62,270 nucleotides of DNA from an uncultured Bdellovibrionales bacterium (GTDB taxonomy: Bacteria > Patescibacteriota > Minisyncoccia > Moranbacterales > UBA2206): the NCBI GenBank assembly GCA_964538685.1, contig CAZIFD010000004.1, forward strand, positions 1-62,270, written 5' to 3'. Position numbers and translations under genes: made by a program. Under the pieces are notes generated by a model, which worked only from the letters and a program-made list of their open reading frames with translations, was not told where the DNA came from and did not search any database. Shown here in pieces: positions 372-57,961 of the stretch (positions are counted from its first letter, which is position 1; each line of letters starts with the position of its first letter).

Positions 372-1973
372 ATGGACAAAGCAATACAACCGCAAAAATT
401 CTTTTTGTACGCCCGCAAGTCCACAGATGTGGAAGATAAACAAGTGAGGTCTATTGAAGATCAAGTCGCAGAATTGCGCGCCTATGCCAAACAAGAGGGG
501 TTAAATATTGTTGAAGTTTTTATCGAAAAGCAATCGGCCAAAATTCCAGGCAGGCCAATTTTTAACGAGATGTTGGATAGAATAGAGAAAGGTGAGGCAA
601 ACGGAATTTTGGCTTGGCACGCAGACAGATTGGCGCGCAATTCTGTGGACGGCGGGCGTATTATTTATCTTTTAGATACCGGAAAACTTGCGGCCCTGAA
701 GTTTCCAACTTTATGGTTTGAAAACACACCGCAAGGAAAATTTATGCTGAACATTATCTTTGGACAAAGCAAATACTATGTTGATTCGCTTGCCGAAAAT
801 ACAAAAAGAGGTTTACGCCAAAAAGTGAAACGCGGTGAATATCCGGGAGTTGCGCCTATTGGCTACATAAACGATGTTCGTACCAAATCAATCATCTTGG
901 ACAAAAAGAAAGCTCCAATTATTCGCCGCGCTTTTGAACTTTATTCACAGGGTGATAAACGGCTCGAAGATATCGCCGACTTTTTGGCACAAAACGGAAT
1001 CTTATCTTCCGGCGGCAAGCGAATCAAACGAGACAGAATTTCTTTTATCCTTTCAAATCCTTTTTACATCGGGTTGTTTAGATATGCCGGTGAAATTTAC
1101 GAAGGCAAACATCAGCCAATAGTCTCAAAGAAAACTTTTGATAAGGTGCAGGAAGTTTTGAAGCAAAGAGGACGACCGCGCCACAAAACCAAAAATCAAC
1201 CACAGCCATTTTGCGGTCTTTTGCGTTGCGGAACTTGCGGCATGATGATAACCGGCGAATACAGAATAAAAAGGCAGAAAAACGGCAATGTCCACGAATA
1301 TGTTTATTACCACTGCACCAAAAAGCGAAAAGATTTCAAATGCCCCGAGCCCTGTATCCGCCAAGAAGAATTAGATCGTCAGTTATCCTCTCTGCTTCAA
1401 AAATTTTCTTTGCCACCGGATTGGGCGGCGGAGATGAGAAAGATGTTGGAGAAAGACAAAGTGGAAGCCGCCCAATCCGCAACCGCTTTTGTTCAAGAAA
1501 CGCGGGAGAAAATCCGCACTATTCAAACGAAGCTCCAGCGACTTCTTGATGGCTATCTTGAACAAGACATTGAACGTGAAGTATATCTCACTGAAAAAGC
1601 CAAACTCCTTTCCGAAAAGAAGTCGCTGGAGGAGCAATCTTTCAATCTTGAACAAAAGCGGACTGGCTGGCTCGAACCGATGGCAGAATGGATAAAAGAG
1701 GCAGAAAACCTGCCTAAAATCGCACAAGAGAGCAACCTTTTTGCGAAAAAGGTTGCTTGCCGAACTTTGTTCGGCTCGAACCTCGTTTTGGCCAACCGCG
1801 AGGCGCGCGTCAGCGCGCCGAGCGGCAAGGATTCCCCGCACAAAAACCAATGGGCGGCACTGCGTGCCGCCCACGAATTGGCTCTCAAAAAGCCGTTTTG
1901 TTTTGTAGTGGTGCGCCCACCAGGACTCGAACCTGGGACCGTTTGCTTAAAAGGCAACTGCTCTACCAACTGA
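372..1973 (+). CDS. Large serine recombinase (resolvase + recombinase + Zn-ribbon + coiled coil), LSR-1
   Basis: YARKS catalytic Ser motif, DRLARN, CGTCG...YYHC zinc ribbon; last 19 codons are antisense tRNA-Lys (RPPGLEPGT...). Confidence 0.95.
   Translation: MDKAIQPQKFFLYARKSTDVEDKQVRSIEDQVAELRAYAKQEGLNIVEVFIEKQSAKIPGRPIFNEMLDRIEKGEANGILAWHADRLARNSVDGGRIIYLLDTGKLAALKFPTLWFENTPQGKFMLNIIFGQSKYYVDSLAENTKRGLRQKVKRGEYPGVAPIGYINDVRTKSIILDKKKAPIIRRAFELYSQGDKRLEDIADFLAQNGILSSGGKRIKRDRISFILSNPFYIGLFRYAGEIYEGKHQPIVSKKTFDKVQEVLKQRGRPRHKTKNQPQPFCGLLRCGTCGMMITGEYRIKRQKNGNVHEYVYYHCTKKRKDFKCPEPCIRQEELDRQLSSLLQKFSLPPDWAAEMRKMLEKDKVEAAQSATAFVQETREKIRTIQTKLQRLLDGYLEQDIEREVYLTEKAKLLSEKKSLEEQSFNLEQKRTGWLEPMAEWIKEAENLPKIAQESNLFAKKVACRTLFGSNLVLANREARVSAPSGKDSPHKNQWAALRAAHELALKKPFCFVVVRPPGLEPGTVCLKGNCSTN
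1777..1913 (+). repeat. Right arm of 137 bp inverted repeat, inside 3' end of LSR-1, ending at attL-like tRNA junction
   Basis: Exact reverse complement of 51-187; contains hairpins ggcgcgc-gtca-gcgcgcc and gggcggcac-tgc-gtgccgccc. Confidence 0.97.
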
Positions 1974-48168: not shown

Positions 48169-48879
48169 TCATTTTTTTAAATACTTTTTTCTTTTATTTT
48201 CAGGAAATCTTTCAATTGCATAGCGAAGCATTGTCCGAGGCATTTGCTGATAATATTTATCCAAAAAATTTTCCTCAGTTTTTTCGTTGCATTTTTTTCC
48301 CACCTCCCGAAGCATCCAACCGCAAGCTTTGTGAATCAAATCTTCTTTGTCTTCCAACAACAATGCGATCAATTCAAAAGTATCTTTATATTCTCCGTTT
48401 TTTATGAATTCAAAAGTTGAAATAATGGCGATTCTCCTCTCCCAAATATTTTTCGATCGGGCTAATTTATATAAAATTTTTCTGTCTTTTTTTAATAAAA
48501 AACTTCCTAAAATATTGGGAGCCGATAAATCAACCAAGTCCCAATTGTTAATTTGCTTGATATTTTTAAGATAAAGTTGGCAAATTTTTTTCTTTTCTTT
48601 TTCACTCCCATTTTCAAATTTTTTAACTAAAATTAAAAGCGCAATCAAACGCTCTTCGTGATAACTGCTTTCCAAAAGACTAGCAATCTCCGTCAAGGAC
48701 AGCTTTTCAAAATATTTCCCAACCAGTTGCCTCTGAAGTGGAACCGTTATTCCTAAAAATTTATCCCCCTCACCATATTCCCCTTTTCCCGTCTTGAAAA
48801 ATCTGGAAAGAATCTTGGCCTTTTCAGGATTCTTGAGATTTTTAATTTCTCTGACTATTTCTTTAAAATTCTCTTCCAT
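48169..48879 (-). CDS. DNA alkylation repair protein (AlkD-like HEAT repeats)
   Basis: FFKTGKGEYGEGDKFLG, NNWDLVD, WERR, HKACGWMLRE, RTMLRYAIE; start reassigned to MEENFK. Confidence 0.9.
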   Translation of the reverse strand: MEENFKEIVREIKNLKNPEKAKILSRFFKTGKGEYGEGDKFLGITVPLQRQLVGKYFEKLSLTEIASLLESSYHEERLIALLILVKKFENGSEKEKKKICQLYLKNIKQINNWDLVDLSAPNILGSFLLKKDRKILYKLARSKNIWERRIAIISTFEFIKNGEYKDTFELIALLLEDKEDLIHKACGWMLREVGKKCNEKTEENFLDKYYQQMPRTMLRYAIERFPENKRKKYLKK

Positions 48880-48918
48880 ACTAACAATTTCATTAAAAAA
48901 CCTGCCTGATAGAAAAGT

Positions 48919-49019
48919 GTCGCATTTACTGAACGAAGCTCGAACCTTTTTTGAGCAACAAATTCTGCCGTGAACGGCAGAAACCCGCCCAGCGTCTCCG
49001 CCCGCCGATACTCGGCGAG
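48919..49019 (+). repeat. attR-like junction plus L segment; diverged inverted copy at 60296-60387
   Basis: Shared ctgaacgaagctcgaac and tccgcccgccga-a/tactcggcgag. Confidence 0.85.
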
Positions 49020-49102
49020 CAAAGCAAAACAATTTTCTTTCAATTTTTTATCGCCCGCCCGCCAAATTTTTCTTAAAAGGAATTGAAAATTGTTTTGCTT
49101 TG
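49020..49102 (+). repeat. 83 bp unit U (18 bp terminal inverted arms), copy 1
   Basis: caaagcaaaacaattttc-47 nt-gaaaattgttttgctttg; copies at 54903-54985 (identical, minus) and 60213-60295 (3 substitutions, minus). Confidence 0.95.
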
Positions 49103-49246
49103 ACGTCTTGATACCAAGACGGCGGAAACGCTTCGCTACGCCAATTTTATTTTTCGGGCGGGGCGGAAAAAAAGGGGGGGTCTGGGGGGAATTCCGCCCC
49201 GCCCTCTCTTTTCCGCTTTCACTTTTTTCGCTGGCGCTGGAGGCCG
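49020..49246 (+). repeat. Left arm of perfect 227 bp inverted repeat bounding cassette 1 (partner 54759-54985)
   Basis: Exact reverse complement, including homopolymer lengths A7, G7, G6. Confidence 0.95.
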
Positions 49247-49270
49247 TGCCAACTTCATTGGCGCGCCACC

Positions 49271-50086
49271 TTATAATTTTTTTATTGTTTCCGATCCGTT
49301 GGTAGAAATTATTACTGGAGCGACGCCTTTTGTTCCAATAACATATGTTGCCACATTTACTATTTCTCCCTTTTTAGCAAATTGAGCCATTGCTCCGGTC
49401 GTCATCACTACTTTCGGAGGCATGGGGACTGCATAAGTATCAGCGACACCACCCTTTGAAGAATTGTAAACCGAAACCGATTGATATTTCTCAACGCTAG
49501 CTTTGGTCATTATATTGCCTGGCAATTCAGCACTTCCCTGCAGACAATCAGGATGTGTTTTGTTAATTTTTAATCCTAAAATCAGTGACGAAATAAAAAG
49601 GCGTTTTATCTCTTTACGATCTCTTGCTAAAGTTTCGGAATCTTTAACATCCCTTATTTTTTTATTTCCGTATTCGATATCCAACCTGCTCTCAATTAAA
49701 TTATCCTTATTCTTGTCAGGGTCAAACCCTAAATCAAAAATCGGAAATTTGTTTTGTTTGTATAATGCAACTTCCTTTTCATTAAGTAACGTTCTTGTTA
49801 TTAAACACGTTAAATCTCCTTTTTCCAAAAATTTGGATAAACTTCCTCTTGCTTCAACCTTTCTATTATCTTCCCCTTCAATTACAAATGTCTTTATCCT
49901 GTTTATCCAATTATTACCGTTAATTTTTGTTACTATTACTTGTTCCCATGGCAAAATATCGCTTTTTCTTAAAATGCCTTTTGGAATTACCAAGCCCTCG
50001 GCAATTTCGTCCTGTTTAAAAGTATTCCTGCAATTGGTGATAACAAGGTTGTGGATAGCGCTTCTTTTGAAAATTATTTCTTTCAT
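49271..50086 (-). CDS. Tandem double PanD-like (pyruvoyl decarboxylase fold) protein
   Basis: Domain 1 RSAIH...DILPWEQV...NRIKTFVI...GD; domain 2 QGSAELP...DTYAV...GAMAQ...GE, with the Gly-Ser cleavage motif only in domain 2. Confidence 0.75.
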   Translation of the reverse strand: MKEIIFKRSAIHNLVITNCRNTFKQDEIAEGLVIPKGILRKSDILPWEQVIVTKINGNNWINRIKTFVIEGEDNRKVEARGSLSKFLEKGDLTCLITRTLLNEKEVALYKQNKFPIFDLGFDPDKNKDNLIESRLDIEYGNKKIRDVKDSETLARDRKEIKRLFISSLILGLKINKTHPDCLQGSAELPGNIMTKASVEKYQSVSVYNSSKGGVADTYAVPMPPKVVMTTGAMAQFAKKGEIVNVATYVIGTKGVAPVIISTNGSETIKKL

Positions 50087-50186
50087 AAAATTCAGCATTA
50101 CCTTATCACATTGCGCAATATAAGTAATTTTTAAAAATTAAATCCTATGCAATTATAATACGTCTTTTTCTATAAAAAATCAATGA

Positions 50187-50676
50187 AAACCACTAGCTTA
50201 TACGCTAGTGGTTTCTATCCTGCCGTCTAACGACGGCTAGAACAACTTGAGGTTTTCCATATCTACCTGTCGGTTGCTTTGGTTTTGAATATACTTACGG
50301 ATGGCAAATTCATTGATGCCAATGGTAGAAACAAAGTAGCCCCGTGCCCAGAGACTGCCTTTGGGGAATTTTTTAGGCGGTATGACAAGATACAAGTGTA
50401 TATGCTCGTCGCCAATGTGCCATTCGAGAATTTTAATCCCCTTCCATTTGGCAATGAACTTGAATATTCTCTTAAGTTCTAGTTTAATGTAAGTATCTGC
50501 CATTACCTTGCCTCGGTATCTGGGAGTCCAAACTACATGATACTGACAACAGTAAGTGCAGTGCTCTAGTTTATAGAGTTTGGTCAACATAAAATCACCT
50601 CCTTGCTAGTGGGTGATTTTATTATATTCCAAGAGCTAACGCTCTAAACGCACACACCGGCTGACGCCGGTGGTTT
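50187..50676 (-). mobile_element. IS200/IS605-family element, transposase-only, internally deleted
   Basis: tnpA ORF flanked by hairpins aaaccactagc-ttatac-gctagtggttt (50187-50214) and accggc-tgac-gccggt (50656-50671); exact ends uncertain. Confidence 0.7.
50237..50590 (-). pseudogene. tnpA: IS200-type Y1 transposase TnpA with in-frame internal deletion
   Basis: YHVVWTPRYR, HUH motif EHIHL, LWARGYFVSTIG, KYIQNQ; segment normally between IPPK and FP is missing. Confidence 0.8.
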
Positions 50677-50691
50677 ATCTGGTTAAAAAAA

Positions 50692-50723
50692 AGGAGCGGC
50701 TCTCTTTTAAGATTACCGCTCCT
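50692..50723 (-). terminator. Hairpin after radical SAM genes
   Basis: aggagcgg-16 nt-ccgctcct followed on the minus strand by a T-run. Confidence 0.6.
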
Positions 50724-50727
50724 GAAT

Positions 50728-52260
50728 TTAGAGTCTGCGCGTTACAGACCTTCCCAAGCGCTCATTGATGGATTTCACCTTGCGGTGCATTTCATCAAGT
50801 AACGCATTCGGGTATGGCCATACCCCCGTCTTCCGAGAGAATAAACAATGCTCGAACGGCGCAGTCGGGTAGAGCTGCCGCCACGAACGCCGATATTCTC
50901 GCGTGACAGGAGAGAGGGTCAGAAAGATCGCTTGGTGCAAGAATTGCTGCTCAAGACACTCTGTGATGAATCGGAAAGTTTCTTCCAATTCGCACGGCCT
51001 TTCGGCAGGCTGTCCATTTGTTTCGGGAAAACCGCCTATGAAAAAGCCCTCACGATTGGTCGTTTGCAGATTCTCCTTGGCAAACTCGAGAACTTTCCGC
51101 ACCACAGACAAGGTATGCGGCTTTCTTATCATGCGAAGTACTCTGTCGTTTCCGTTCTCGCATGGAAACGCGATGTGCCGTACATTGCCGTTCTGACTGA
51201 ATTGCCGGAGCAACCGGAAGTTTTCCCTAGTCATTGACTCGAAAGTAAGGCCGTTGGAAAATCCGATCTGGTACCCCGCGCTGGCTACTTGAGAAAGAAT
51301 CTCAAAAGCCAAGTCGCGAGAGGAGTTGTTTCCGCCGCCGAAATTGTTGTCCATAAAGTCAATGTAGTTGATGCCGAAAAGGCAATCAAACTCATTGATG
51401 ATTTCCATGGTGTTCTCGACAGCGTACCTTACGAGCCGCTTATCTGTGTCGCAAAAACTGCAGTCAAAACCGCAACCGTACGACGTCAGAAGTGGCAGGT
51501 AGGCAACAGGCCCCTGAATGCCAAGGATGGTACCGATTCGTCCGGCGTGAGGATTACCGACAAAGGAGTAAAGATCCAATGCTTTTTCCCTCCCAACAAC
51601 TTCCACTCGCGGAAGCAAGTTGTAGTCGGGAATTGCGAAATGATCGGGTTGAAACTCGGACAGACCGGAAAATTCAACACGACCATTGAATCTGCGAGCC
51701 ACTCCTTGCGGCAAGTTACCCATAGCTGGTTCGTCAAAACAGCGTAGTAGAGAAGTTATCACCGGCTGACCCGGGCCAACAACGACATAGTCAATTGCCG
51801 GAATTTCTCCGATAGGAAACGGAGTATTGCCGAGGATTTCTTCGTACCACTGCGAAGCTTCATGTCCGCCCAGAATAATGGGCGTTGCAGGAAATGCTTC
51901 CTTCAGGGCCTTAGTTGTTTTTGCCACTTCGCCTCGATCAACTACCGTGCAACAGCTCATGCCGATCACATCCGGCTCACGCTTGACCACTTCGTCTACG
52001 ATCTCCTCGATCCGCAGTCCAGTTTTCCAGTAAGGAATCCCGTCAAGTTCCTCAATCGCTACCGGATTATAGGAAGAATCAAGGATACCTTTTTTTAAAC
52101 CCTCGGCCGCCGCGTCAAAGAGAAATGCTTCGTAGCCATTTCTTTTGGCTTCCGCCAAAACAGAAATGGCTCCCAATGGCGGGTGAATGCGGGGCGGAGT
52201 TCCAGCTGGAGAGACTGCGCGAGGTGTTACAATGACAAACCTCTCTATCTTTCGTTTCAT
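50728..52260 (-). CDS. B12-binding-domain radical SAM enzyme
   Basis: PPLG, PDVIGMSC, IILGGHEAS, CGFDCSFC, DNNF, CENG, FFIGGFP. Confidence 0.9.
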   Translation of the reverse strand: MKRKIERFVIVTPRAVSPAGTPPRIHPPLGAISVLAEAKRNGYEAFLFDAAAEGLKKGILDSSYNPVAIEELDGIPYWKTGLRIEEIVDEVVKREPDVIGMSCCTVVDRGEVAKTTKALKEAFPATPIILGGHEASQWYEEILGNTPFPIGEIPAIDYVVVGPGQPVITSLLRCFDEPAMGNLPQGVARRFNGRVEFSGLSEFQPDHFAIPDYNLLPRVEVVGREKALDLYSFVGNPHAGRIGTILGIQGPVAYLPLLTSYGCGFDCSFCDTDKRLVRYAVENTMEIINEFDCLFGINYIDFMDNNFGGGNNSSRDLAFEILSQVASAGYQIGFSNGLTFESMTRENFRLLRQFSQNGNVRHIAFPCENGNDRVLRMIRKPHTLSVVRKVLEFAKENLQTTNREGFFIGGFPETNGQPAERPCELEETFRFITECLEQQFLHQAIFLTLSPVTREYRRSWRQLYPTAPFEHCLFSRKTGVWPYPNALLDEMHRKVKSINERLGRSVTRRL

Positions 52261-52312
52261 GATTTTACCTCCTTTTCAGAAAAAGAGGCGGCAAGAAATG
52301 AATCCCGCCGCC

Positions 52313-53566
52313 TCAGGTGGTTGAACTACCGCTTTTCCGCATTGTCTCATAGAGGCAGTTGGGATCCTGCTGATCGTAGTTGCCCCAGAAGTAGAAGCGA
52401 TTAGCTGGACATTCGTTTTTACAGAGACGATTGCAGCTATCGCATTCGCGGGGTTGACGAATCGCCCGAACGGTTTGGAATTTATTCCCGACTTTTCCTT
52501 GCCAAAAATCTCTGATGGTTCCATCTTGGTAGATTTTCCCAAAAGAGAAGGTTGGCCCGAAGAAAACGCAGGGACTTATCTTGCCGTTGGCGTCAATGTG
52601 CATGGAACGGTTAGCCGCTCCGCACATTCGTCCGCGCAAGAGTTTCTGCAACACCCCAGCTGGCTGGCTGAACATCATGCCTTCGTCCATCAGCACATAC
52701 GGTAGCACTTTTGGGCTATTAAGGTATTCCAGTACCTTGAGATAACGCGGGGAGTCTTGAGGGCTTAGCATTGTTTGATTATGCACAGCCCTGCCGGCCG
52801 GCCTGCAGTAGGAGAATTTGATTTTTACTCCTCTGCTTCTAGCCAGTTCTACTAACTCCGGCACATTATCCAAGTTTTGTGGTAACAGCGTAGTCCGCAA
52901 AAGTACATTGACGCCGCCTTCCTTGAGTGTTTCAAGAGCGGCGAGTGCTTTCCGGAAATGACCAGAACCACGCAAGCTGTCATTGACCGCTTCCATGCCC
53001 TCAATACTTACCGAGGTGCGAATTTTGGCATTAGCAAGCAAGTCAACTGTTTGCGGGGTTACTACTGCACTGTTCGTGCTGATTGTGAGAAAACATCCGG
53101 CTGAACGGAGCAGGTTAATGATGATTTCAAAATCAGGATGAAGAAAAGGATCGCCACCGCCGATTTTGACGTACATAACACCCAGCTTCTGAATTTCCGC
53201 CGCAAGTTTCTTAATTGTCGCCACGGGCAAAGATGTTTTTAGGCCTCGTCCCGCTTCCGACAAACAGAAAGGACATTGGAGCGAACACGCCAGCGTGATG
53301 TCGAGGTAAATCTTGAACGGAGCCGAATAGGCGTTTAGGACTGGCGAATTGTGAACAATCCGAACTGCCTTGTCACTTAATTTCTGCCCGACAAACTGTC
53401 CGATAAGATCGGGCTGTGCCGAATCGAAGGGAATCCACTGCGGAGATTGCAAAGTATGAACTTTCAACACTCCGCTATTGGAATCAAACTCCACCAGTTT
53501 ATCGACTTCCTCCTCTCGTAAAGAGGAAAAGCCGAAGCTGGTGTTTTCCAGCCTTATGATCTTCAT
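52313..53566 (-). CDS. Radical SAM enzyme with SPASM domain
   Basis: CSLQCPFC, GGDPF, STN, CGAA...ISPC, CDSC-x3-C-x3-C. Confidence 0.92.
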   Translation of the reverse strand: MKIIRLENTSFGFSSLREEEVDKLVEFDSNSGVLKVHTLQSPQWIPFDSAQPDLIGQFVGQKLSDKAVRIVHNSPVLNAYSAPFKIYLDITLACSLQCPFCLSEAGRGLKTSLPVATIKKLAAEIQKLGVMYVKIGGGDPFLHPDFEIIINLLRSAGCFLTISTNSAVVTPQTVDLLANAKIRTSVSIEGMEAVNDSLRGSGHFRKALAALETLKEGGVNVLLRTTLLPQNLDNVPELVELARSRGVKIKFSYCRPAGRAVHNQTMLSPQDSPRYLKVLEYLNSPKVLPYVLMDEGMMFSQPAGVLQKLLRGRMCGAANRSMHIDANGKISPCVFFGPTFSFGKIYQDGTIRDFWQGKVGNKFQTVRAIRQPRECDSCNRLCKNECPANRFYFWGNYDQQDPNCLYETMRKSGSSTT

Positions 53567-53581
53567 GGCTTTTCCTCCTTT

Positions 53582-54232
53582 TCAGTCGAGAATTCGGGAA
53601 GTCAGTATGTCTGCTTTCAGGCAACGGGCGGCGGCGATGGCCGTACCAATCGGCTTGAGAATTCCGTCATCGGGCAGATCAATCCTTGATGTGATTTTTC
53701 CGCCTGCTTTTTGGAATTCTTTGACTGACATTGGCTTTTCCGCTATCTGCAAAAGCAATTCTGCTTCCAGCTCAATGAGAGCAGGGTCGTCGATCGGCCT
53801 AATCTCGCCAGAGGTAAATCTTCCAGCATAGATCAGGACATTAGTGAACGGTTTGCGGCCGGCTTCGGCGCGCGGACTGCGAAAGATAATGATAGGCAGA
53901 GGCTCATTCGTCAGATCGGTAGCAAGATATATTTTTTCAATGGACTCCGAGTCCATCAAAATTGTCTCATCGCCGTGATGATCCGCGATGTCCACGTCTG
54001 ACCCAACTTCCTCAATCGCTTCCCGATGCAACGAAGCACCTGGCAATTCGTTCGGTTCCAGTTTTCCACCAATCCCGCCAAAAGGCAGGATTGAAATACC
54101 CTCTTCGGTCTTACCCCAACGGTGGGGTTGCTTTAAAGTAAAGCAGAAACCGAAGCCGCGGGTTGCTAGCAAACCAGTCCCCAGATCCGCTTCGGGATCC
54201 TGAAGAAACTGTTCCAGTTTATGCTCATTCAT
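53582..54232 (-). CDS. NUDIX hydrolase
   Basis: Perfect Nudix box GKLEPNELPGASLHREAIEEVG; start reassigned to MNEHK with AGAGGA RBS. Confidence 0.9.
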   Translation of the reverse strand: MNEHKLEQFLQDPEADLGTGLLATRGFGFCFTLKQPHRWGKTEEGISILPFGGIGGKLEPNELPGASLHREAIEEVGSDVDIADHHGDETILMDSESIEKIYLATDLTNEPLPIIIFRSPRAEAGRKPFTNVLIYAGRFTSGEIRPIDDPALIELEAELLLQIAEKPMSVKEFQKAGGKITSRIDLPDDGILKPIGTAIAAARCLKADILTSRILD

Positions 54233-54365
54233 TTCTGTATCCTCTTTAGGTTTTTGGTTGTCAATGTGCTCACCAGAACGCTCTAGCTTGACGTTGTATT
54301 TTATAGCAAAAAGGCGTATTTTGTCAAGGATATTGTGTATTTTAGAGATAAATGGATTCATAAGC

Positions 54366-54575
54366 TTATTTGAGCAAAATATCAACAGAAACACCTAATG
54401 CTTTGGCAATTCTTTGAACAGTATCAATAGTCGGGCTTTGTATTCCGCCCGATTCAATTTTAATAATTGTGGCATGAGCCACATCTGCCAATCTTGCAAG
54501 TTTGTCTTGCGATAAACCTTTTTCCTTGCGGTATTTCTTTATGTTTTTTGCAATAGTTGGAATTATTTTTGACAT
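54366..54575 (-). CDS. XRE-family HTH regulator (cassette 1)
   Basis: NIKKYRKEKGLSQDKLA...IIKIESG...PTIDTVQRIAKALGV. Confidence 0.93.
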   Translation of the reverse strand: MSKIIPTIAKNIKKYRKEKGLSQDKLARLADVAHATIIKIESGGIQSPTIDTVQRIAKALGVSVDILLK

Positions 54576-54588
54576 TGTGATATGTTAA

Positions 54589-54610
54589 TATCTATACTAT
54601 AATATAGATA
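54589..54610. promoter_or_regulatory. Palindromic operator candidate upstream of XRE-1
   Basis: tatctata-ctataa-tatagata; half-site atatctata repeated near 54624-54632. Confidence 0.5.
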
Positions 54611-54758
54611 GTAATTTATCTTTCAGTAAATATCTATATTATTATGATACACAATTTTTATTTATTAGTAAATGGGAGTTCTTTGTCGTTGCCCGCGCAC
54701 GGGTGGGTTGGAGCAAGGGCAACATCCTTTTCGGCGGCGCATTTCGCTTTGCGAAATG

Positions 54759-54985
54759 CGGCCTCCAGCGCCAGCGAAAAAAGTGAAAGCGGAAAAGAGA
54801 GGGCGGGGCGGAATTCCCCCCAGACCCCCCCTTTTTTTCCGCCCCGCCCGAAAAATAAAATTGGCGTAGCGAAGCGTTTCCGCCGTCTTGGTATCAAGAC
54901 GTCAAAGCAAAACAATTTTCAATTCCTTTTAAGAAAAATTTGGCGGGCGGGCGATAAAAAATTGAAAGAAAATTGTTTTGCTTTG
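54759..54985 (-). repeat. Right arm of 227 bp inverted repeat of cassette 1 (includes U copy 2 at 54903-54985)
   Basis: Reverse complement of 49020-49246. Confidence 0.95.
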
Positions 54986-55118
54986 ATGTTTGGCTTAACG
55001 CCAAACGGCGGAAACGCTTCGCTTCGGCTCGGGCGTGGCGGAATTCCTCCCCCCAACCCCCTCCTTCCGCCACGCCCTCGCTCGGACTGCTCTTTTTTTC
55101 GGCGGAATTGGAGGCCGT
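54968..55118 (+). repeat. Left arm of perfect 151 bp inverted repeat bounding cassette 2 (partner 60080-60230)
   Basis: Exact reverse complement; diverged homolog of the cassette-1 arm. Confidence 0.95.
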
Positions 55119-55141
55119 GCCAATTTCATTGGCGCGCCGCC

Positions 55142-57961
55142 TCATTTCTGAATTAAATACTCCTCAAGTTTCTCAAGAATATTATCAACAGTCAATTGGT
55201 CTTTTGGCGAACAACCGACAATATGATCAATGTATTTATCTTTTTTCAATTCAGTCAAAATGTTCGCACTCTGATTTCCTTTGCCGGAATGGTGATAAAT
55301 TTGACCTGTGATAATTACATTGTATTTTGTTTGCCCTTTTTTCAATCCACCCAAGACATCGCTATTCCTGATTTTGGAATTGCCAAAAAACGCAACATCC
55401 CAATCAGTCGCTTTCAATCCGTATTTTGCGAAAAAACCTCTCAATTTTTCTCTGATTAAATCCTCGCCAACAACTTCGCCCAAAATACAAATATTGAACG
55501 GAGACGGAATTTTGATATTTTCGGCTTCTTCTTTCGCGCCAGCTTTCGGTTGAAATGCCAGAGCTTCTTTCAAACCGCCGATTGTCGCTTGCGCGTTTTG
55601 CAAATCAAGTTTCAAAATTTCATTTTCAAGTTTTTTGTCGTCGAGATTTTTAATAGCCTTTGTCAGCTCGCCCTCGTATAATTCAAGCAATTCCTGATCT
55701 TCTTTTGACTTTTCCGCCTGTTTTTCGGAAACAATTTTACGACTTTGGGTATATCTAACTAAATTTTCTTCAAATTGAGGTTTGAAACTTGCTAAATCTT
55801 GATTTTTTAGAGCGACAAAAAACTTGTAGTAATCAGACGGCGAAATAATGTAAAAATAAAAATTTTCTTTGCCTTTGTATTCTTTTTGATATTTTTTCCC
55901 TGCGTTTAATTTGAGCAAGTTTTCATTTTTGAAGTCTCGGTCATCTTTAATTTCAACAACAAGGGTGTCTTTTTTCGTTTTTATTACAAAATCAGGATAA
56001 AAAGCGTAATAACTGCCGTGGCTATTGCCGTTTTTCTTGTAGGCAATTCCAAAATACTTGCTTTCTGAAACGCCATTTTTAAACCACCACAAAACATCGT
56101 TGTCGGTCTTTTCCAGTTCATCAATAAATACTTTTTCGGGCTTGGACCATTGCTGTTTTCCGTTTTTATCTCGTTTTACAAAGTAAGGTTTCAAAACCGA
56201 TTTTTTGATAGTTTTGATTTCATCAAAATTTTCAAAAACGCTTATTATATCCGGCACTTGCCAATTTTCATTGGGGATAACTTCGTCTGCTTTTTCAGGC
56301 AACGATTTATATTTACCTTTTGCTGTTTCAATAAGTTCTATAAATTCACCTTTATTGACTGGATTCAAAACAATCGTTGCGATTTCGTCCTCGTTATCAA
56401 TTCCAAACGCTTTTTTGAAAAACGAACGCAAGCTTGATTTGATAATTTCAGTCGGGCGACCACCGCCAGTAAACGGAAAAGTTAGAGATTTTATAAATGC
56501 CGTGTATTCGGCGCAAACTTCCTCGCGGTCTCTTACAATTGCGCCTTTCTTTTGAAAATCAACGGCTTGCTTTTTATCAATTTCGGAAATTTGCCCCTCA
56601 AAACCAATATCTTTTTTGAAAACTATTTTGCCGATGTTGATTTTCTTTTCTTTGAATTTCAATTCATCGCCAGCTTGAAACAAACAATCCTTAAATTCAC
56701 CCGACAATCTAAATAATTCTCTTTTTCTTCTGATATGTTCGCTTGGCAGATAAATATCTTTATAAATCGTATTGTCGCGCACCATTTGATCTTTGCTGAC
56801 ATAATCCTTTGCTAAATCTTCAACAATTTCAAAATTATCAGAAGCCGTATAAACATAGCCGATATTCAAAGCGGGATAATTTTCGTAATGCTTTTGCTCT
56901 GGCATACGCATAATACGGCCAAGCGTTTGGATATTGAAAACATAATTTTCGGCGTTCCATTCCCGTTGAAGCAGTAAAATGCTGGCGCGTGGGCAATCCC
57001 AACCTTGTGCAATAGCTTCTTTGAATACTAAAACATCAACTCCGCTATCGTGATTTTCAAGGTAATCAAGATTTTTCTTTTTATCTTTTTCGGCAAGCCA
57101 AAGAGCAAGTTTTCCATTTTCAATCGTTATGCCGTCTTTGTTCAAAATTTCAATGATTTTGTCTTCCGGCTCTCTAATATCCGATTTCTTTTTCTTTGGT
57201 ATTTGGATTAAAAGCAAAGGATTTATATCGGTCTTGGCTTCTTCGTAAAGCCGTTTTAATTCCTTTCGTTTTTTCAACGCTTCACGAACAATGTCCTCGT
57301 TTGTCTGCACTCGGCCAAGTCCAGGATTTATCTGTATCCCTTCCTTAATCATTCCCTCGGCCACAACTTCGCTTAATTTGACGGTTATTTTGTGGTCATT
57401 GGTTACGCCCTCTTTTGGCGTGGCCGAAACTTCAATCGTCGATTTTGGGCTAATCATGTTGACGATTTCTTGCGACTTGCTTGTTTTTGCCGTTCTGTGG
57501 CTTTCGTCAATTATCAAAACAATGTTTCTGCCCTCGTCTCTCGTATTTTCGGCAACTTTGCTTAAATTCCAATCCTTTTCATTGTCGGACATAAAAAGCG
57601 AAATACCCTCTTTATTCAAAGAATCCCAGTTCACAAAAACAATCTGGTTTTGCTCAATTATATTGTTTTGAATTTCGTTAATTCCAATGCAATCAAGCAG
57701 TCGCTCATTTTCAAAATGCTTTTCCAGTTTTTCTTTTCTTTGTTCGTTTAGTGCGTTTACTGAAATCCAAACAAAAGCTAATTCCTTTTGACCGCCAAGC
57801 TCTTTTACTATTCGCGACATTGCTTCGGCAAGCATAATTGTTTTACCTGCGCCAGTTGGAGCTTGAAAAACAATCAATTTTGGGTCTTCATCTTCAATAT
57901 ACCCAACGGAAGTTGAGACAAGTTCTTTGATGTATTTTTTTTGATATGCTAAATCTTTCAT
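55142..57961 (-). CDS. Type III restriction enzyme Res subunit with C-terminal extension
   Basis: QAPTGAGKT, IIDESH, SATP, EAIAQGWD, QTLGRIMR, PD...VEIK nuclease; 4 nt overlap with mod. Confidence 0.9.
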   Translation of the reverse strand: MKDLAYQKKYIKELVSTSVGYIEDEDPKLIVFQAPTGAGKTIMLAEAMSRIVKELGGQKELAFVWISVNALNEQRKEKLEKHFENERLLDCIGINEIQNNIIEQNQIVFVNWDSLNKEGISLFMSDNEKDWNLSKVAENTRDEGRNIVLIIDESHRTAKTSKSQEIVNMISPKSTIEVSATPKEGVTNDHKITVKLSEVVAEGMIKEGIQINPGLGRVQTNEDIVREALKKRKELKRLYEEAKTDINPLLLIQIPKKKKSDIREPEDKIIEILNKDGITIENGKLALWLAEKDKKKNLDYLENHDSGVDVLVFKEAIAQGWDCPRASILLLQREWNAENYVFNIQTLGRIMRMPEQKHYENYPALNIGYVYTASDNFEIVEDLAKDYVSKDQMVRDNTIYKDIYLPSEHIRRKRELFRLSGEFKDCLFQAGDELKFKEKKINIGKIVFKKDIGFEGQISEIDKKQAVDFQKKGAIVRDREEVCAEYTAFIKSLTFPFTGGGRPTEIIKSSLRSFFKKAFGIDNEDEIATIVLNPVNKGEFIELIETAKGKYKSLPEKADEVIPNENWQVPDIISVFENFDEIKTIKKSVLKPYFVKRDKNGKQQWSKPEKVFIDELEKTDNDVLWWFKNGVSESKYFGIAYKKNGNSHGSYYAFYPDFVIKTKKDTLVVEIKDDRDFKNENLLKLNAGKKYQKEYKGKENFYFYIISPSDYYKFFVALKNQDLASFKPQFEENLVRYTQSRKIVSEKQAEKSKEDQELLELYEGELTKAIKNLDDKKLENEILKLDLQNAQATIGGLKEALAFQPKAGAKEEAENIKIPSPFNICILGEVVGEDLIREKLRGFFAKYGLKATDWDVAFFGNSKIRNSDVLGGLKKGQTKYNVIITGQIYHHSGKGNQSANILTELKKDKYIDHIVGCSPKDQLTVDNILEKLEEYLIQK

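What the first reader, a model, noticed from the sequence alone, without database searches (positions are those of the whole stretch)
49271..54232. Uncharacterised NUDIX + SPASM radical SAM + B12 radical SAM + pyruvoyl-decarboxylase cluster
Seen: four co-oriented enzyme genes in cassette 1. The NUDIX and radical SAM genes are visibly GC-richer than the host, with strong RBSs. An IS200 remnant and a hairpin separate them from the PanD-like gene. Established: CPR generally lack cobalamin and most cofactor synthesis. Radical SAM plus decarboxylase steps occur in phage thymidine hypermodification, and viperins make antiviral nucleotides. Inference: a nucleotide or small-molecule modification pathway, possibly defensive since the sister cassette is an R-M system.
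Basis: partly seen in the sequence, partly recalled or inferred. Interest (0 to 1): 0.68.

Follow-up and report, generated by a model that had tools for sequence, protein, structure and literature searches.

The report
Mobile radical-SAM operon linked to valyl-tRNA synthetase
A real, conserved and horizontally mobile four-enzyme gene set of unknown product sits here in a Patescibacteria genome. Its relatives elsewhere lie next to the valine-charging enzyme ValRS far more often than chance allows, which points to an undescribed valine-related radical chemistry rather than to a known pathway.

Summary
Four co-oriented minus-strand genes are present: a NUDIX-type hydrolase (53582-54232), an MftC-like SPASM radical SAM enzyme (52313-53566), a cobalamin-binding radical SAM enzyme (50728-52260) and a tandem PanD-like pyruvoyl decarboxylase (49271-50086). 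The first three are 47-50% GC against 37.5% for the window. A 504-bp IS200 derivative and a terminator hairpin separate the third gene from the fourth.

It recurs in dozens of Patescibacteria contigs in several gene orders. In gut Alphaproteobacteria a DUF512-type cobalamin radical SAM replaces the B12 enzyme. The hydrolase slot is filled by NUDIX-like, ordinary NUDIX or HD proteins. No known pathway, PADLOC defence model or paper matches.

The unexpected result is that bona fide ValRS genes lie directly beside the cluster in 9 of 53 dereplicated loci, in at least five lineages. These include a second in-operon ValRS, a co-transferred GC-rich ValRS, Val T-boxes and tRNA-Val genes. The SPASM enzyme's nearest characterised relatives are MftC, which acts on a valine beta-carbon.

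Best reading, moderate to low confidence: a valine/ValRS-linked, nucleotide-handled small-molecule pathway, possibly a ValRS-directed antimetabolite, carried here on an HTH-controlled cassette. A defence role is neither supported nor excluded.

The parts
54366..54575 (-). XRE/C-protein-type HTH regulator, first gene of the cassette
   Evidence: Pfam HTH_3 66.8 bits. PADLOC capH and 'Control_protein' models. Present upstream of the NUDIX-like gene in L012, L014, L016/L033, L032, L035/L036 and L017. About 75% DNA identity to the HTH and upstream region of the R-M cassette.
54576..54680 (-). HTH promoter/operator region with the palindrome ATCTATA..TATAGAT
   Evidence: Read directly from the sequence. 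A role as operator is inferred.
54233..54365 (-). Promoter (TTGACA ~54328, TATAAA) and 5' leader of the NUDIX-SPASM-B12 unit. Gene callers read it as an N-terminal extension.
   Evidence: Sequence. More distant homologues start at the internal Met. Residues 20-41 of the AF2 model have pLDDT below 50.
53582..54232 (-). NUDIX-type pyrophosphohydrolase, 216 aa, divergent family
   Evidence: NUDIX box GKLEPNELPGASLHREAIEEVGS is invariant across 24 homologues. Pfam NUDIX 20.4 bits against a cut-off of 21.1. AF2 pLDDT 85. Foldseek probability 1.0 to MutT-type NTP/(d)CTP pyrophosphohydrolases.
52313..53566 (-). MftC-like SPASM radical SAM enzyme, 417 aa
   Evidence: Pfam Radical_SAM 87 bits and SPASM 36.7 bits. 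Best NCBIfam match is MftC at 150.5 bits, cut-off 265. True MftC proteins are among the nearest outgroups.
50728..52260 (-). Cobalamin-binding (class B) radical SAM enzyme, 510 aa
   Evidence: Pfam B12-binding 42.6 bits and Radical_SAM 40.1 bits. CX3CX2C motif CGFDCSFC. No NCBIfam equivalog is reached; the best is a P-methyltransferase family at 68.9 bits against 575. The family is tight, 76 clusters at 45% identity or more.
50685..50723 (-).
   Evidence: Conserved in type A loci.
50184..50687 (-). IS200/IS605-type element with hairpins near both ends and an internally deleted tnpA (50237-50590, 117 aa)
   Evidence: Pfam Y1_Tnp and NCBIfam transpos_IS200, each in two stretches. Empty-site joint 50183|50688 in runs X2 and X4. 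Hairpins.
50150..50183 (-). Own promoter of the PanD-like gene (TTGATT-17-TATTAT/TATAAT), left intact by the IS insertion
   Evidence: Sequence. Conserved in L001, L005, L012, L014, L016 and L032.
49271..50086 (-). Tandem-domain PanD-like protein, probably a pyruvoyl-dependent amino-acid alpha-decarboxylase
   Evidence: Pfam Asp_decarbox, two stretches. The alignment to E. coli PanD places Gly188-Ser189 on the Gly24-Ser25 cleavage site and Thr221-Tyr222 on Thr57-Tyr58. These residues are invariant or nearly so in 28 homologues. AF2 pLDDT 93.5; Foldseek to PanD gives TM 0.80-0.87.
49020..49246 (.). Left arm of the 227-nt perfect inverted repeat bracketing the cassette
   Evidence: The unitig has twice the depth of the cassette in run X1, 27.6 against 14.6.
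54759..54985 (.). Right arm of the 227-nt perfect inverted repeat
49223..49274 (.). 3' boundary repeat with hairpin, also found after the Res gene of cassette 2 (55094-55145)
   Evidence: Conserved after the PanD-like gene in type A loci.

Best explanation
The region is one conserved functional module. It encodes a cobalamin- and radical-SAM-dependent pathway for a small, amino-acid-derived molecule that is functionally tied to valine and valyl-tRNA synthetase (ValRS). In this window the module travels on a mobile cassette controlled by an HTH regulator.

Shown:
- The cassette has three transcription units: the HTH gene, NUDIX-SPASM-B12, and the PanD-like gene.
- The catalytic motifs of all four enzymes are intact.
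- The module is conserved and spreads horizontally.
- Both the cobalamin radical SAM enzyme and the phosphohydrolase have been replaced by non-orthologous equivalents in some lineages.
- The module is non-randomly adjacent to ValRS, tRNA-Val and Val T-boxes.

Inferred mechanism:
1. The PanD-like protein cleaves itself at Gly188-Ser189 to form a pyruvoyl group. It then decarboxylates an aspartate-like alpha-amino acid. The N-terminal pseudo-domain supplies the equivalents of PanD Lys9 and Arg54.
2. The MftC-like SPASM enzyme abstracts a hydrogen from an unactivated carbon, as MftC does at a valine C-beta. It then forms a C-C bond or carries out an oxidative step.
3. The cobalamin enzyme adds one or more methyl groups to an sp3 carbon.
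4. The NUDIX-type enzyme (ordinary NUDIX or HD elsewhere) cleaves a pyrophosphate or nucleotide handle from an intermediate or the product. This step could be maturation or self-protection.

My preferred reading of the purpose is a valine-mimicking, probably adenosine- or nucleotide-linked antimetabolite aimed at ValRS. Extra ValRS copies, hydrolases and exporters would then serve as self-protection in the loci that carry them. The product and the order of steps are not established.
For: Co-occurrence:
- NUDIX-SPASM-B12-PanD recurs at 60-96% identity in Falkow-, Magasanik-, Gracili- and other Patescibacteria contigs with unrelated flanks.
- PanD-SPASM-B12 recurs at 40-53% identity, with host-like GC, among core genes.
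- A high-GC organism has all four genes in a divergent layout plus a Tmk-like kinase.

Replacement by analogous enzymes:
- Alphaproteobacteria carry a DUF512/PDZ radical SAM, the SPASM enzyme (31% identity) and the NUDIX-like enzyme (35-40%). DUF512 is a proven cobalamin-binding domain (PMC11659888).
- The hydrolase slot holds the NUDIX-like protein, an ordinary 175-aa NUDIX (L054/L058) or an HD protein (L029).

ValRS link:
- NCBIfam-validated ValRS genes sit directly beside the cluster in L008, L027, L041, L043, L048, L057, L070, L074 and L075, in different orders.
- L027 has a second, divergent ValRS (54% identity) inside the operon, while the other copy sits behind a Val T-box.
- In L041 the ValRS shares the cassette's anomalous GC, 0.49 against flanks of about 0.35.
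- tRNA-Val(TAC) is adjacent in L057 and L074.
- Binomial tail: 2.5e-10 for 9 of 53 loci, and 5e-5 if only 5 lineages are counted as independent.

MftC relationship.

Self-protection and export flavour:
- ABC exporters lie beside the cluster in L044, L052, L058, L066, L067, L071 and L075.
- Peptidases of family S66 (LD-carboxypeptidase family; from memory, the microcin C immunity enzyme MccF also belongs to it) occur in L041 and L046.
- Frequent gene decay fits an accessory function: L001/L003, L007, L013, L020, L031.
- In L017 the same HTH plus NUDIX-like pair is joined to a SAM hydroxide adenosyltransferase and a dikinase-like enzyme. This points to SAM- or adenosine-derived substrates.
Against: - No product, substrate or ligase/transferase step is identified.
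- The window's own cassette has neither a ValRS nor an exporter. A toxic product would need another form of immunity.
- In L070 a Val T-box, ValRS and the cluster lie in one direction with no predicted terminator between them. That layout looks more like a supply operon than a toxin operon.
- The editing-site and catalytic motifs of all cluster-linked ValRS genes look normal, so nothing marks them as resistant or specialised.
- Adjacency to ValRS is seen in only 9 of 53 loci. Part of it may be inherited synteny within Patescibacteria.
- The NUDIX substrate cannot be read from the fold.
- Some PanD-like homologues stand alone or sit in peptide-type clusters.
Confidence: 0.4

Rival explanations
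1. Anti-phage defence. On infection the radical SAM enzymes turn a nucleotide into a chain-terminating or otherwise toxic analogue, as viperins do. The NUDIX enzyme trims or detoxifies it, and the HTH acts as a controller as in R-M systems.
For: - The cassette lies beside a type III R-M cassette that has a homologous HTH and upstream region.
- R-M or other defence-type genes flank relatives in L002, L004, L050, L073 (HsdM, helicase, patatin) and L074 (SIR2).
- In the Magasanikbacteria locus, different R-M cassettes are inserted next to the cluster.
- Nucleotide kinases and hydrolases occur nearby.
- The cassette is mobile and flanked by recombinase genes.
Against: - PADLOC gives only generic radical SAM and NUDIX hits (pVip 38.7 bits, over part of the protein).
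- The more divergent versions with host-like GC sit among housekeeping genes.
- Defence offers no explanation for the links to ValRS, tRNA-Val and the T-box.
- Mobile islands gather unrelated cargo, so the neighbourhood argument is weak.
Confidence: 0.15
2. Maturation of a ribosomally made peptide (RiPP) or of a protein. The MftC-like SPASM enzyme and the cobalamin methylase modify a peptide whose gene lies elsewhere or has been missed. The PanD-like and NUDIX proteins are accessory.
For: - The SPASM enzyme's relatives are peptide maturases: MftC, PqqE, SkfB, CteB.
- The alphaproteobacterial cobalamin enzyme carries a PDZ domain, which typically binds peptide C-termini.
- PanD-like homologues in L066, L067 and L071/L072 sit with AgrB, a conserved 48-53-aa ORF (..TMCGKNH..), an ABC exporter and SPASM enzymes.
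Against: - No conserved small ORF exists in the NUDIX-SPASM-B12-PanD or PanD-SPASM-B12 clusters. The only conserved small ORF after the PanD-like gene lies in the cassette boundary repeat and recurs after the R-M cassette.
- Genes in the PanD-SPASM-B12 clusters overlap and leave no room for one.
- The SPASM enzyme has no recognisable peptide-recognition (RRE) partner.
- A pyruvoyl decarboxylase needs a free amino acid.
- The swapping of nucleotide hydrolases is not explained.
Confidence: 0.15
3. Supply pathway. The enzymes build valine, or a valine-derived cofactor, from a common precursor in organisms that cannot make branched-chain amino acids. One possible route is C-methylation of an aspartate-, alanine- or aminobutyrate-type skeleton, followed by decarboxylation and a radical rearrangement. 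The product feeds ValRS directly.
For: - Val T-box -> ValRS -> PanD-SPASM-B12 lie in one direction in L070, with no predicted terminator.
- tRNA-Val and ValRS are adjacent to the cluster.
- A Leu/Val/Phe-type amino-acid dehydrogenase lies beside ValRS in L074, and relA/spoT lies upstream in L027.
- The clusters with host-like GC sit in core-genome context, and their hosts are genome-reduced organisms.
- The PanD-like protein keeps the equivalents of the Asp-binding residues Lys9 and Arg54.
- From memory: cobalamin radical SAM enzymes such as TokK build isopropyl groups by repeated methylation.
Against: - The chemistry is unprecedented, and a nucleotide hydrolase has no evident role in it.
- The distribution is patchy, genes decay often, and the module is carried on mobile cassettes. 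All three are unusual for an essential supply route.
- A supply route gives no reason for a second ValRS (L027) or a co-transferred ValRS (L041).
Confidence: 0.12

Closest known systems
Mycofactocin maturase MftC (TIGR03962) and the mft system
   Same: SPASM radical SAM enzyme. MftC is the best NCBIfam match (150.5 bits), and true MftC proteins are among the nearest outgroups. From memory, MftC abstracts a hydrogen from a valine C-beta and couples this to a decarboxylation. Both themes recur here, as the ValRS link and a separate decarboxylase.
   Different: The score is below the family cut-off of 265. No mftA, B, D, E or F genes are present, and no precursor peptide. The partners here are a cobalamin radical SAM, a NUDIX and a PanD-like protein.
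Class B (cobalamin-dependent) radical SAM methylases acting on nucleotide-tagged substrates (Fom3 with FomD in fosfomycin biosynthesis; TokK/ThnK; PoyC). Their properties are cited from memory.
   Same: N-terminal B12-binding domain plus radical SAM core. TokK is the only PDB sequence hit, and it is weak. As in Fom3/FomD, a hydrolase that could remove a nucleotide handle is present.
   Different: No equivalog is reached; the best score is 68.9 bits against 575. No phosphonate genes are present. The substrate is unknown. In Alphaproteobacteria a DUF512-type cobalamin enzyme takes its place.
Aspartate 1-decarboxylase PanD, and CrpG (beta-methylaspartate decarboxylase, cited from memory)
   Same: Double-psi beta-barrel fold with TM 0.80-0.87. 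The Gly-Ser self-cleavage site and the Thr-Tyr pair are conserved.
   Different: Two fused PanD domains with complementary sets of residues. TIGR00223 scores 31 bits against 106. There are no panB or panC neighbours. It partners radical SAM enzymes, ValRS or exporters.
OxsA/OxsB oxetanocin pathway (cited from memory)
   Same: A cobalamin radical SAM enzyme paired with a small nucleotide phosphohydrolase. An HD protein fills that slot in L029.
   Different: No sequence relationship was detected. Two further enzymes are present here, and the ValRS link has no counterpart.
Antibiotic gene clusters that carry a resistant aminoacyl-tRNA synthetase copy (mupirocin/IleRS, agrocin 84/LeuRS, albomycin/SerRS; cited from memory)
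   Same: An extra or co-transferred synthetase inside or beside the cluster (L027, L041). Exporters and hydrolases lie nearby. The cluster is mobile and patchily distributed.
   Different: No ValRS-directed natural product of this kind is known to me. The cluster-linked ValRS genes show no recognisable resistance signature. The window's cassette has no ValRS.
Prokaryotic viperins (pVip)
   Same: Radical SAM enzyme in a defence-island-like neighbourhood, with nucleotide-handling partners.
   Different: Only a generic partial HMM match of 38.7 bits. The SPASM architecture, the cobalamin enzyme, the decarboxylase and the ValRS link are all foreign to pVip systems.

Membership tests
Aspartate 1-decarboxylase (PanD) | Double-psi beta-barrel fold | tested here: met
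   AF2 pLDDT 93.5. Foldseek to PanD structures gives TM 0.80-0.87 and rmsd 1.5-2 A. Both halves match Pfam Asp_decarbox.
Aspartate 1-decarboxylase (PanD) | Gly-Ser self-cleavage site giving the pyruvoyl group, plus the Thr57/Tyr58 equivalents | tested here: met
   C-terminal domain: LQG188-S189 and T221-Y222. S189, T221 and Y222 are invariant and G188 nearly so in 28 homologues. Cleavage itself was not testable.
Aspartate 1-decarboxylase (PanD) | Single ~120-140-aa domain reaching the family score (TIGR00223 cut-off 106 bits), with Lys9 and Arg54 in the same domain | tested here: not met
   31 bits. The protein is a tandem of two domains. By my own reading of the alignments, the Lys9 and Arg54 equivalents (K11, R67) lie only in the N-terminal pseudo-domain, which lacks the Ser.
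Mycofactocin system (MftC) | TIGR03962 score of at least 265 bits | tested here: not met
   150.5 bits. True MftC outgroups score 373-428 bits.
Mycofactocin system (MftC) | Neighbouring mftA precursor, mftB, mftD, mftE and mftF | tested here: not met
   None in the window or in about 50 related loci.
Class B cobalamin-dependent radical SAM | B12-binding domain plus CX3CX2C radical SAM core | tested here: met
   Pfam PF02310 42.6 bits (cut-off 32.1) and PF04055 40.1 bits (cut-off 29.5). Motif CGFDCSFC.
Class B cobalamin-dependent radical SAM | Membership of a characterised subfamily (PhpK, Fom3, TokK, BchE, HpnR, PoyC and others) | tested here: not met
   All NCBIfam scores are far below their cut-offs. 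The TokK hit has E=0.0016.
NUDIX hydrolase | NUDIX box GX5EX7REUXEEXGU and the alpha/beta/alpha NUDIX fold | tested here: met
   The box is invariant in the family. Foldseek probability 1.0 to MutT-type enzymes. The Pfam score is just under the cut-off, 20.4 against 21.1.
Prokaryotic viperin defence (pVip) | Match to the pVip models over the full length | tested here: not met
   38.7 bits over residues 86-204 only.
IS200/IS605 | Y1 (HUH) transposase and hairpins near both ends | tested here: inconclusive
   The HUH motif and the Tyr-containing C-terminal motif are present by eye, but the match comes in two stretches with about 35 aa missing between them. Hairpins at both ends. An empty site exists in relatives. 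The element is probably not autonomous.
Integron gene cassette | Tyrosine integrase IntI and attC sites | tested here: not met
   The adjacent recombinases are large serine recombinases. The boundaries are 150-230-nt inverted repeats.
Phage thymidine hypermodification | Phage-borne cluster with 5-hmdU kinase and transferase genes | tested here: not met
   No relative of the PanD-like or NUDIX-like proteins in the viral contig collection. None of those genes is present here.

The most novel reading that the evidence does not exclude
The module is a radical, cobalamin-dependent route coupled to ValRS or tRNA-Val. It makes valine, or a valine-derived mycofactocin-like cofactor, in auxotrophic Patescibacteria and reduced Alphaproteobacteria. 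That would be a new way to obtain a proteinogenic amino acid or a redox cofactor without the classical pathways.
Probability: 0.12. Interest if true: 0.92.

Novelty: new variant of a known kind. Interest (0 to 1): 0.7.

Why it matters
Patescibacteria are thought to lack most biosynthesis and to depend on their hosts. Here a conserved module built on two radical SAM enzymes, one needing scavenged cobalamin, spreads among many of their lineages. An analogous version has arisen in gut Alphaproteobacteria.

The repeated physical coupling to ValRS, tRNA-Val and Val T-boxes gives a concrete and testable handle on its function. The product might be a ValRS-directed antimetabolite, a route of valine supply, or a mycofactocin-like valine-derived cofactor.

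Any of these outcomes would add new radical SAM chemistry. It would also add a tandem PanD-type pyruvoyl enzyme and a divergent NUDIX family. And it would say something new about how ultra-small bacteria compete or feed.

Tried and rejected
- PADLOC scan of all cassette proteins: only generic hits.
- Rfam on the window, at gathering and E-value thresholds: no riboswitch or T-box in or near the cassette, only tRNAs and chance miRNA hits on the repeats.
- Sequence search against the PDB: weak, uninformative hits for the B12, SPASM and NUDIX proteins.
- Viral contig scans with the PanD-like and NUDIX-like profiles: nothing.
- Seven literature searches on combinations of the enzyme names, DUF512, Patescibacteria, T-box/valS, mycofactocin and synthetase self-resistance. 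None described the cluster. The only useful hit was the DUF512 = cobalamin-binding paper.
- Search for a precursor peptide after the PanD-like gene. The only ORF conserved in type A loci lies in the cassette boundary repeat and recurs after the R-M cassette, so I rejected it as a precursor.
- Test for a crippled editing or catalytic site in the cluster-linked ValRS genes: motifs intact.
- Count of unique substitutions per ValRS: biased by uneven sampling of relatives, so not used.
- The apparent absence of the left flank from run X1 was an artefact. One search shows it at depth 14.3, equal to the cassette.
- I first read the adjacent synthetase as LeuRS from its Pfam domains. NCBIfam shows ValRS in every case.

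Full report
**1. What is in the window**

Six minus-strand ORFs fill 49271-54575. The host is a Patescibacteria genome. Pfam and NCBIfam identify them as follows:

| Coordinates | Product |
|---|---|
| 54366-54575 | XRE-type HTH regulator |
| 53582-54394 | NUDIX-like ORF |
| 52313-53566 | SPASM radical SAM enzyme |
| 50728-52260 | B12-binding radical SAM enzyme |
| 50237-50590 | 117-aa IS200 TnpA remnant |
| 49271-50098 | protein with two Asp_decarbox (PanD) matches |

- GC content: the three central enzyme genes are 47-50% GC. The PanD-like gene, the HTH gene and the window are 34.5%, 34.8% and 37.5%.
It has a Shine-Dalgarno sequence, and a TTGACA/TATAAA promoter lies in the supposed N-terminal extension. 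More distant homologues begin at this Met, and the extension does not fold.
- AGGAGG-type ribosome-binding sites precede the SPASM and B12 genes.
- After the B12 gene comes a terminator-like hairpin with a T-run. Then comes a 504-bp IS200-type element with hairpins at both ends. Then comes an intact TTGATT-17-TATAAT promoter for the PanD-like gene.
- Close relatives in two landfill metagenomes carry the empty site 50183|50688. The terminator-promoter spacer is conserved in other loci.
- The IS insertion is therefore recent and sits between two transcription units without breaking either.

**2. The proteins**

*NUDIX-like protein*
- The NUDIX box is invariant in the family.
- It folds with confidence (pLDDT 85). 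It matches MutT-type NTP/(d)CTP pyrophosphohydrolases at Foldseek probability 1.0 but with modest TM scores.
- It belongs to a small divergent family: 58 clusters, all those that carry a name from Patescibacteria, plus 33-40% relatives in Alphaproteobacteria.

*SPASM enzyme*
- It scores best on the mycofactocin maturase model: 150.5 bits against a cut-off of 265, with the next family at 92 bits.
- An exhaustive HMMER search finds about 30 clusters (at 50% identity) of close family members. Beyond those lies a continuum in which true MftC proteins appear among the nearest outgroups, scoring 373-428 bits on TIGR03962.

*B12 enzyme*
- It has both Pfam domains and the CX3CX2C motif but reaches no characterised subfamily.
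- Its family is tight and nearly confined to this cluster type.

*PanD-like protein*
- It is a fusion of two PanD domains. AF2 gives pLDDT 93.5 and Foldseek gives TM 0.80-0.87 to PanD structures.
- The C-terminal half keeps the Gly-Ser self-cleavage site and the Thr-Tyr pair. The N-terminal half has lost the Ser but keeps the equivalents of PanD Lys9 and Arg54.
- I infer a pyruvoyl decarboxylase with a composite active site for an aspartate-like amino acid. Self-cleavage was not testable.

**3.

I examined 77 related loci, which dereplicate to 53 groups including the window. They came from protein searches, contig look-ups and collection scans. The genes recur in several layouts:

- **Type A:** [HTH]-NUDIX-SPASM-B12-PanD at 60-96% identity, in unrelated flanks of many Patescibacteria classes. 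The three GC-rich genes and the AT-rich PanD-like gene show the same contrast everywhere.
- **Type C:** PanD-SPASM-B12, or B12-SPASM-PanD, at 40-53% identity and host-like GC, among core genes.
- **L073:** a high-GC organism with all four genes in a divergent layout plus a Tmk-like kinase.
- **Type B:** gut and rumen Alphaproteobacteria with a DUF512/PDZ radical SAM, SPASM and NUDIX-like genes, plus an unknown 345-aa protein or a PIG-L deacetylase.
- **Type D:** PanD-like gene, a 48-53-aa ORF, an ABC exporter and SPASM enzymes, sometimes with AgrB.

Further points:
- DUF512 is an experimentally shown cobalamin-binding domain (PMC11659888). Type B has therefore swapped in a non-orthologous cobalamin radical SAM enzyme.
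- The hydrolase slot is filled by the NUDIX-like protein, an ordinary 175-aa NUDIX (L054/L058) or an HD protein (L029).
- Such replacements argue that the functions, not just the genes, are selected together.
- Split or deleted genes in several relatives show that the module is dispensable.

**4. The unexpected link to ValRS**

A class I synthetase lies directly beside the cluster in nine dereplicated loci. NCBIfam identifies every one as ValRS, above the curated cut-offs.

| Locus | Order |
|---|---|
| L008 | NUDIX -> ValRS -> unknown 345-aa protein (inside the alphaproteobacterial operon) |
| L027 | B12 -> ValRS#1, then a Val T-box -> dUTPase -> ValRS#2 |
| L041 | ValRS -> SPASM |
| L043 | ValRS -> NUDIX |
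| L048 | PanD -> ValRS |
| L057 | tRNA-Val, ValRS -> PanD |
| L070 | Val T-box -> ValRS -> PanD |
| L074 | PanD, tRNA-Val, ValRS; an amino-acid dehydrogenase lies beside the ValRS |
| L075 | ValRS -> PanD |

- I read the specifier of both T-boxes as GUA (Val) from the alignments. This is my reading, not a tool call.
- In L041 the ValRS shares the cassette's anomalous GC.
- In L027 the in-operon copy is only 54% identical to the T-box-controlled copy. That second copy is 88% identical to the ValRS of L070.
- Against a rough null of 0.75% per locus, 9 of 53 gives a tail of 2.5e-10. Counting only five independent lineages gives 5e-5.
- The window itself has no ValRS.

**5. The mobile setting**

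- The cassette is bracketed by a perfect 227-nt inverted repeat (49020-49246 and 54759-54985).
- The neighbouring type III R-M cassette is bracketed by a 151-nt repeat, and a large serine recombinase by a 158-nt repeat.
- In the source-like activated-sludge run the 227-nt unitig has twice the depth of the cassette. The left flank (14.3) and the cassette (14.6) have equal depth.
- The repeat is therefore real. Its perfect identity may be a product of assembly. Inversion cannot be assessed from contigs.
- Both cassettes begin with homologous HTH genes and upstream regions and end with the same hairpin repeat.
- Serine recombinases also flank the cassette in L002, L032 and L036. The 90% cluster of the window's recombinase has 189 members across Patescibacteria.
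- In L017 the same HTH plus NUDIX-like pair precedes a dikinase-like enzyme and a SAM hydroxide adenosyltransferase instead of the radical SAM genes. This hints that the NUDIX-like enzyme handles SAM- or adenosine-derived compounds.

**6. Interpretation**

What is shown:
- a conserved, mobile, modular pathway;
- two radical steps, one dependent on cobalamin;
- a probable pyruvoyl decarboxylation;
- a nucleotide (pyro)phosphate hydrolysis;
- a strong genomic link to ValRS and tRNA-Val.

What is inferred is the chemistry and the purpose.

I favour a valine-mimicking, nucleotide- or adenosine-linked small molecule directed at ValRS, for these reasons:
- MftC-type enzymes attack a valine C-beta (from memory).
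- A second or co-transferred synthetase is the classical mark of self-resistance in antibiotic clusters (from memory).
- Exporters, S66 peptidases and interchangeable nucleotide hydrolases fit export and self-protection.
- The patchy, mobile and decaying distribution fits an accessory weapon.

The main counter-evidence:
- the supply-like layout T-box -> ValRS -> cluster in L070;
- the core-genome setting of type C;
- the unremarkable motifs of the linked ValRS genes;
- the lack of a ValRS or exporter in the window's cassette.

Three readings remain open. A defence role is suggested only by neighbourhood. A RiPP role lacks a precursor in types A and C. A valine or cofactor supply role is chemically unprecedented.

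**7. Novelty and verdict**

No library model, defence catalogue or paper describes this combination. I rate it a new variant of a known kind: a radical SAM/cobalamin biosynthetic cluster, with an unusual tandem PanD enzyme, a divergent NUDIX family and a previously unnoticed coupling to ValRS.

- Interest: 0.7.
- The general statement, one functional valine/ValRS-linked small-molecule pathway, seems likely to me.
- Confidence in the best explanation as written, including the antimetabolite purpose: 0.4.

Noticed in passing
window 49020-49246 / 54759-54985; 54968-55118 / 60080-60230; 60384-60541 / 62064-62221; 51-187 / 1777-1913: Four pairs of perfect inverted repeats, 137-227 nt long. They bracket, in turn, the radical SAM cassette, the type III R-M cassette and each of two serine recombinase genes. 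The 227-nt unitig has double depth in the source-like run. The perfect identity may come from assembly. Whether the segments invert is unknown.
   Followed up: partly
window 372-1973 and 60695-62269; tRNA-Lys 1909-1984; partial tRNA 62219-62270: Two paralogous large serine recombinases (45% identity) sit at the two ends of the window, each next to a tRNA gene. The 90% cluster of the second has 189 members across Patescibacteria, which suggests a widespread integrative element.
   Followed up: partly
window 55142-59900 against 54366-54767: The neighbouring type III R-M cassette (Res 55142-57961, Mod 57958-59682, HTH 59685-59900) shares its HTH gene and upstream region (about 75% DNA identity) and its 3' hairpin repeat with the radical SAM cassette. 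The two cassettes share a common 'chassis' with different cargo. Short contig joints in a landfill run suggest forms that lack one or the other cassette.
   Followed up: partly
L027 14103-14319; L070 4214-4403: T-box leaders (144 and 118 bits) whose specifier I read as GUA (Val) control ValRS genes beside the cluster in two Patescibacteria contigs. L027 has two ValRS genes only 54% identical, one of them inside the radical SAM operon.
   Followed up: yes
L008, L019, L020, L023, L025, L026 (Alphaproteobacteria MAGs): An analogous cluster uses a 670-aa radical SAM enzyme with PDZ and DUF512 (cobalamin-binding) domains in place of the B12-binding enzyme. It also has an unknown 330-348-aa protein with no Pfam match, or a PIG-L deacetylase in L026.
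   Followed up: partly
L017 9065-13132: The same HTH plus NUDIX-like pair (71% identity) is followed by a PPDK_N/PEP-utilizer dikinase-like protein, an unknown 263-aa protein and a SAM hydroxide adenosyltransferase (DUF62), not by radical SAM genes.
   Followed up: no
L035/L036 (between the B12 and PanD-like genes): A different insertion sequence (341-aa rve-type integrase) sits in the same terminator-promoter spacer where the window has its IS200 derivative. This spacer tolerates or attracts insertions.
   Followed up: partly
L066, L067, L071/L072; protein P0173: PanD-like homologues are followed by a conserved 48-53-aa ORF (..TMCGKNH..), which is fused in frame in P0173. An ABC exporter and SPASM enzymes follow, with AgrB upstream in L066 and L071/L072. 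This is a peptide-type cluster built around the same PanD-like family.
   Followed up: partly
window 48880-49032: The AlkD-like DNA-repair ORF (48169-49032) is extended at its N-terminus by about 50 codons that lie in the cassette boundary repeat. The Pfam match starts at residue 61, so the true start is probably near 48879.
   Followed up: no
window 49215-49254 (minus strand) and 55086-55125: A small ORF beginning MKLARPPAPAKK starts 17 nt after the PanD-like stop. An equivalent ORF start lies in the copy of the same repeat just past the Res gene of cassette 2. It lies in the boundary hairpin and is more likely a DNA site than a gene.
   Followed up: partly
L001-L004, L015, L037, L038: In a Magasanikbacteria lineage a PduO-type cob(I)alamin adenosyltransferase gene follows the cluster. 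In some of these contigs the B12 radical SAM gene is split, and different R-M cassettes are inserted just upstream.
   Followed up: no
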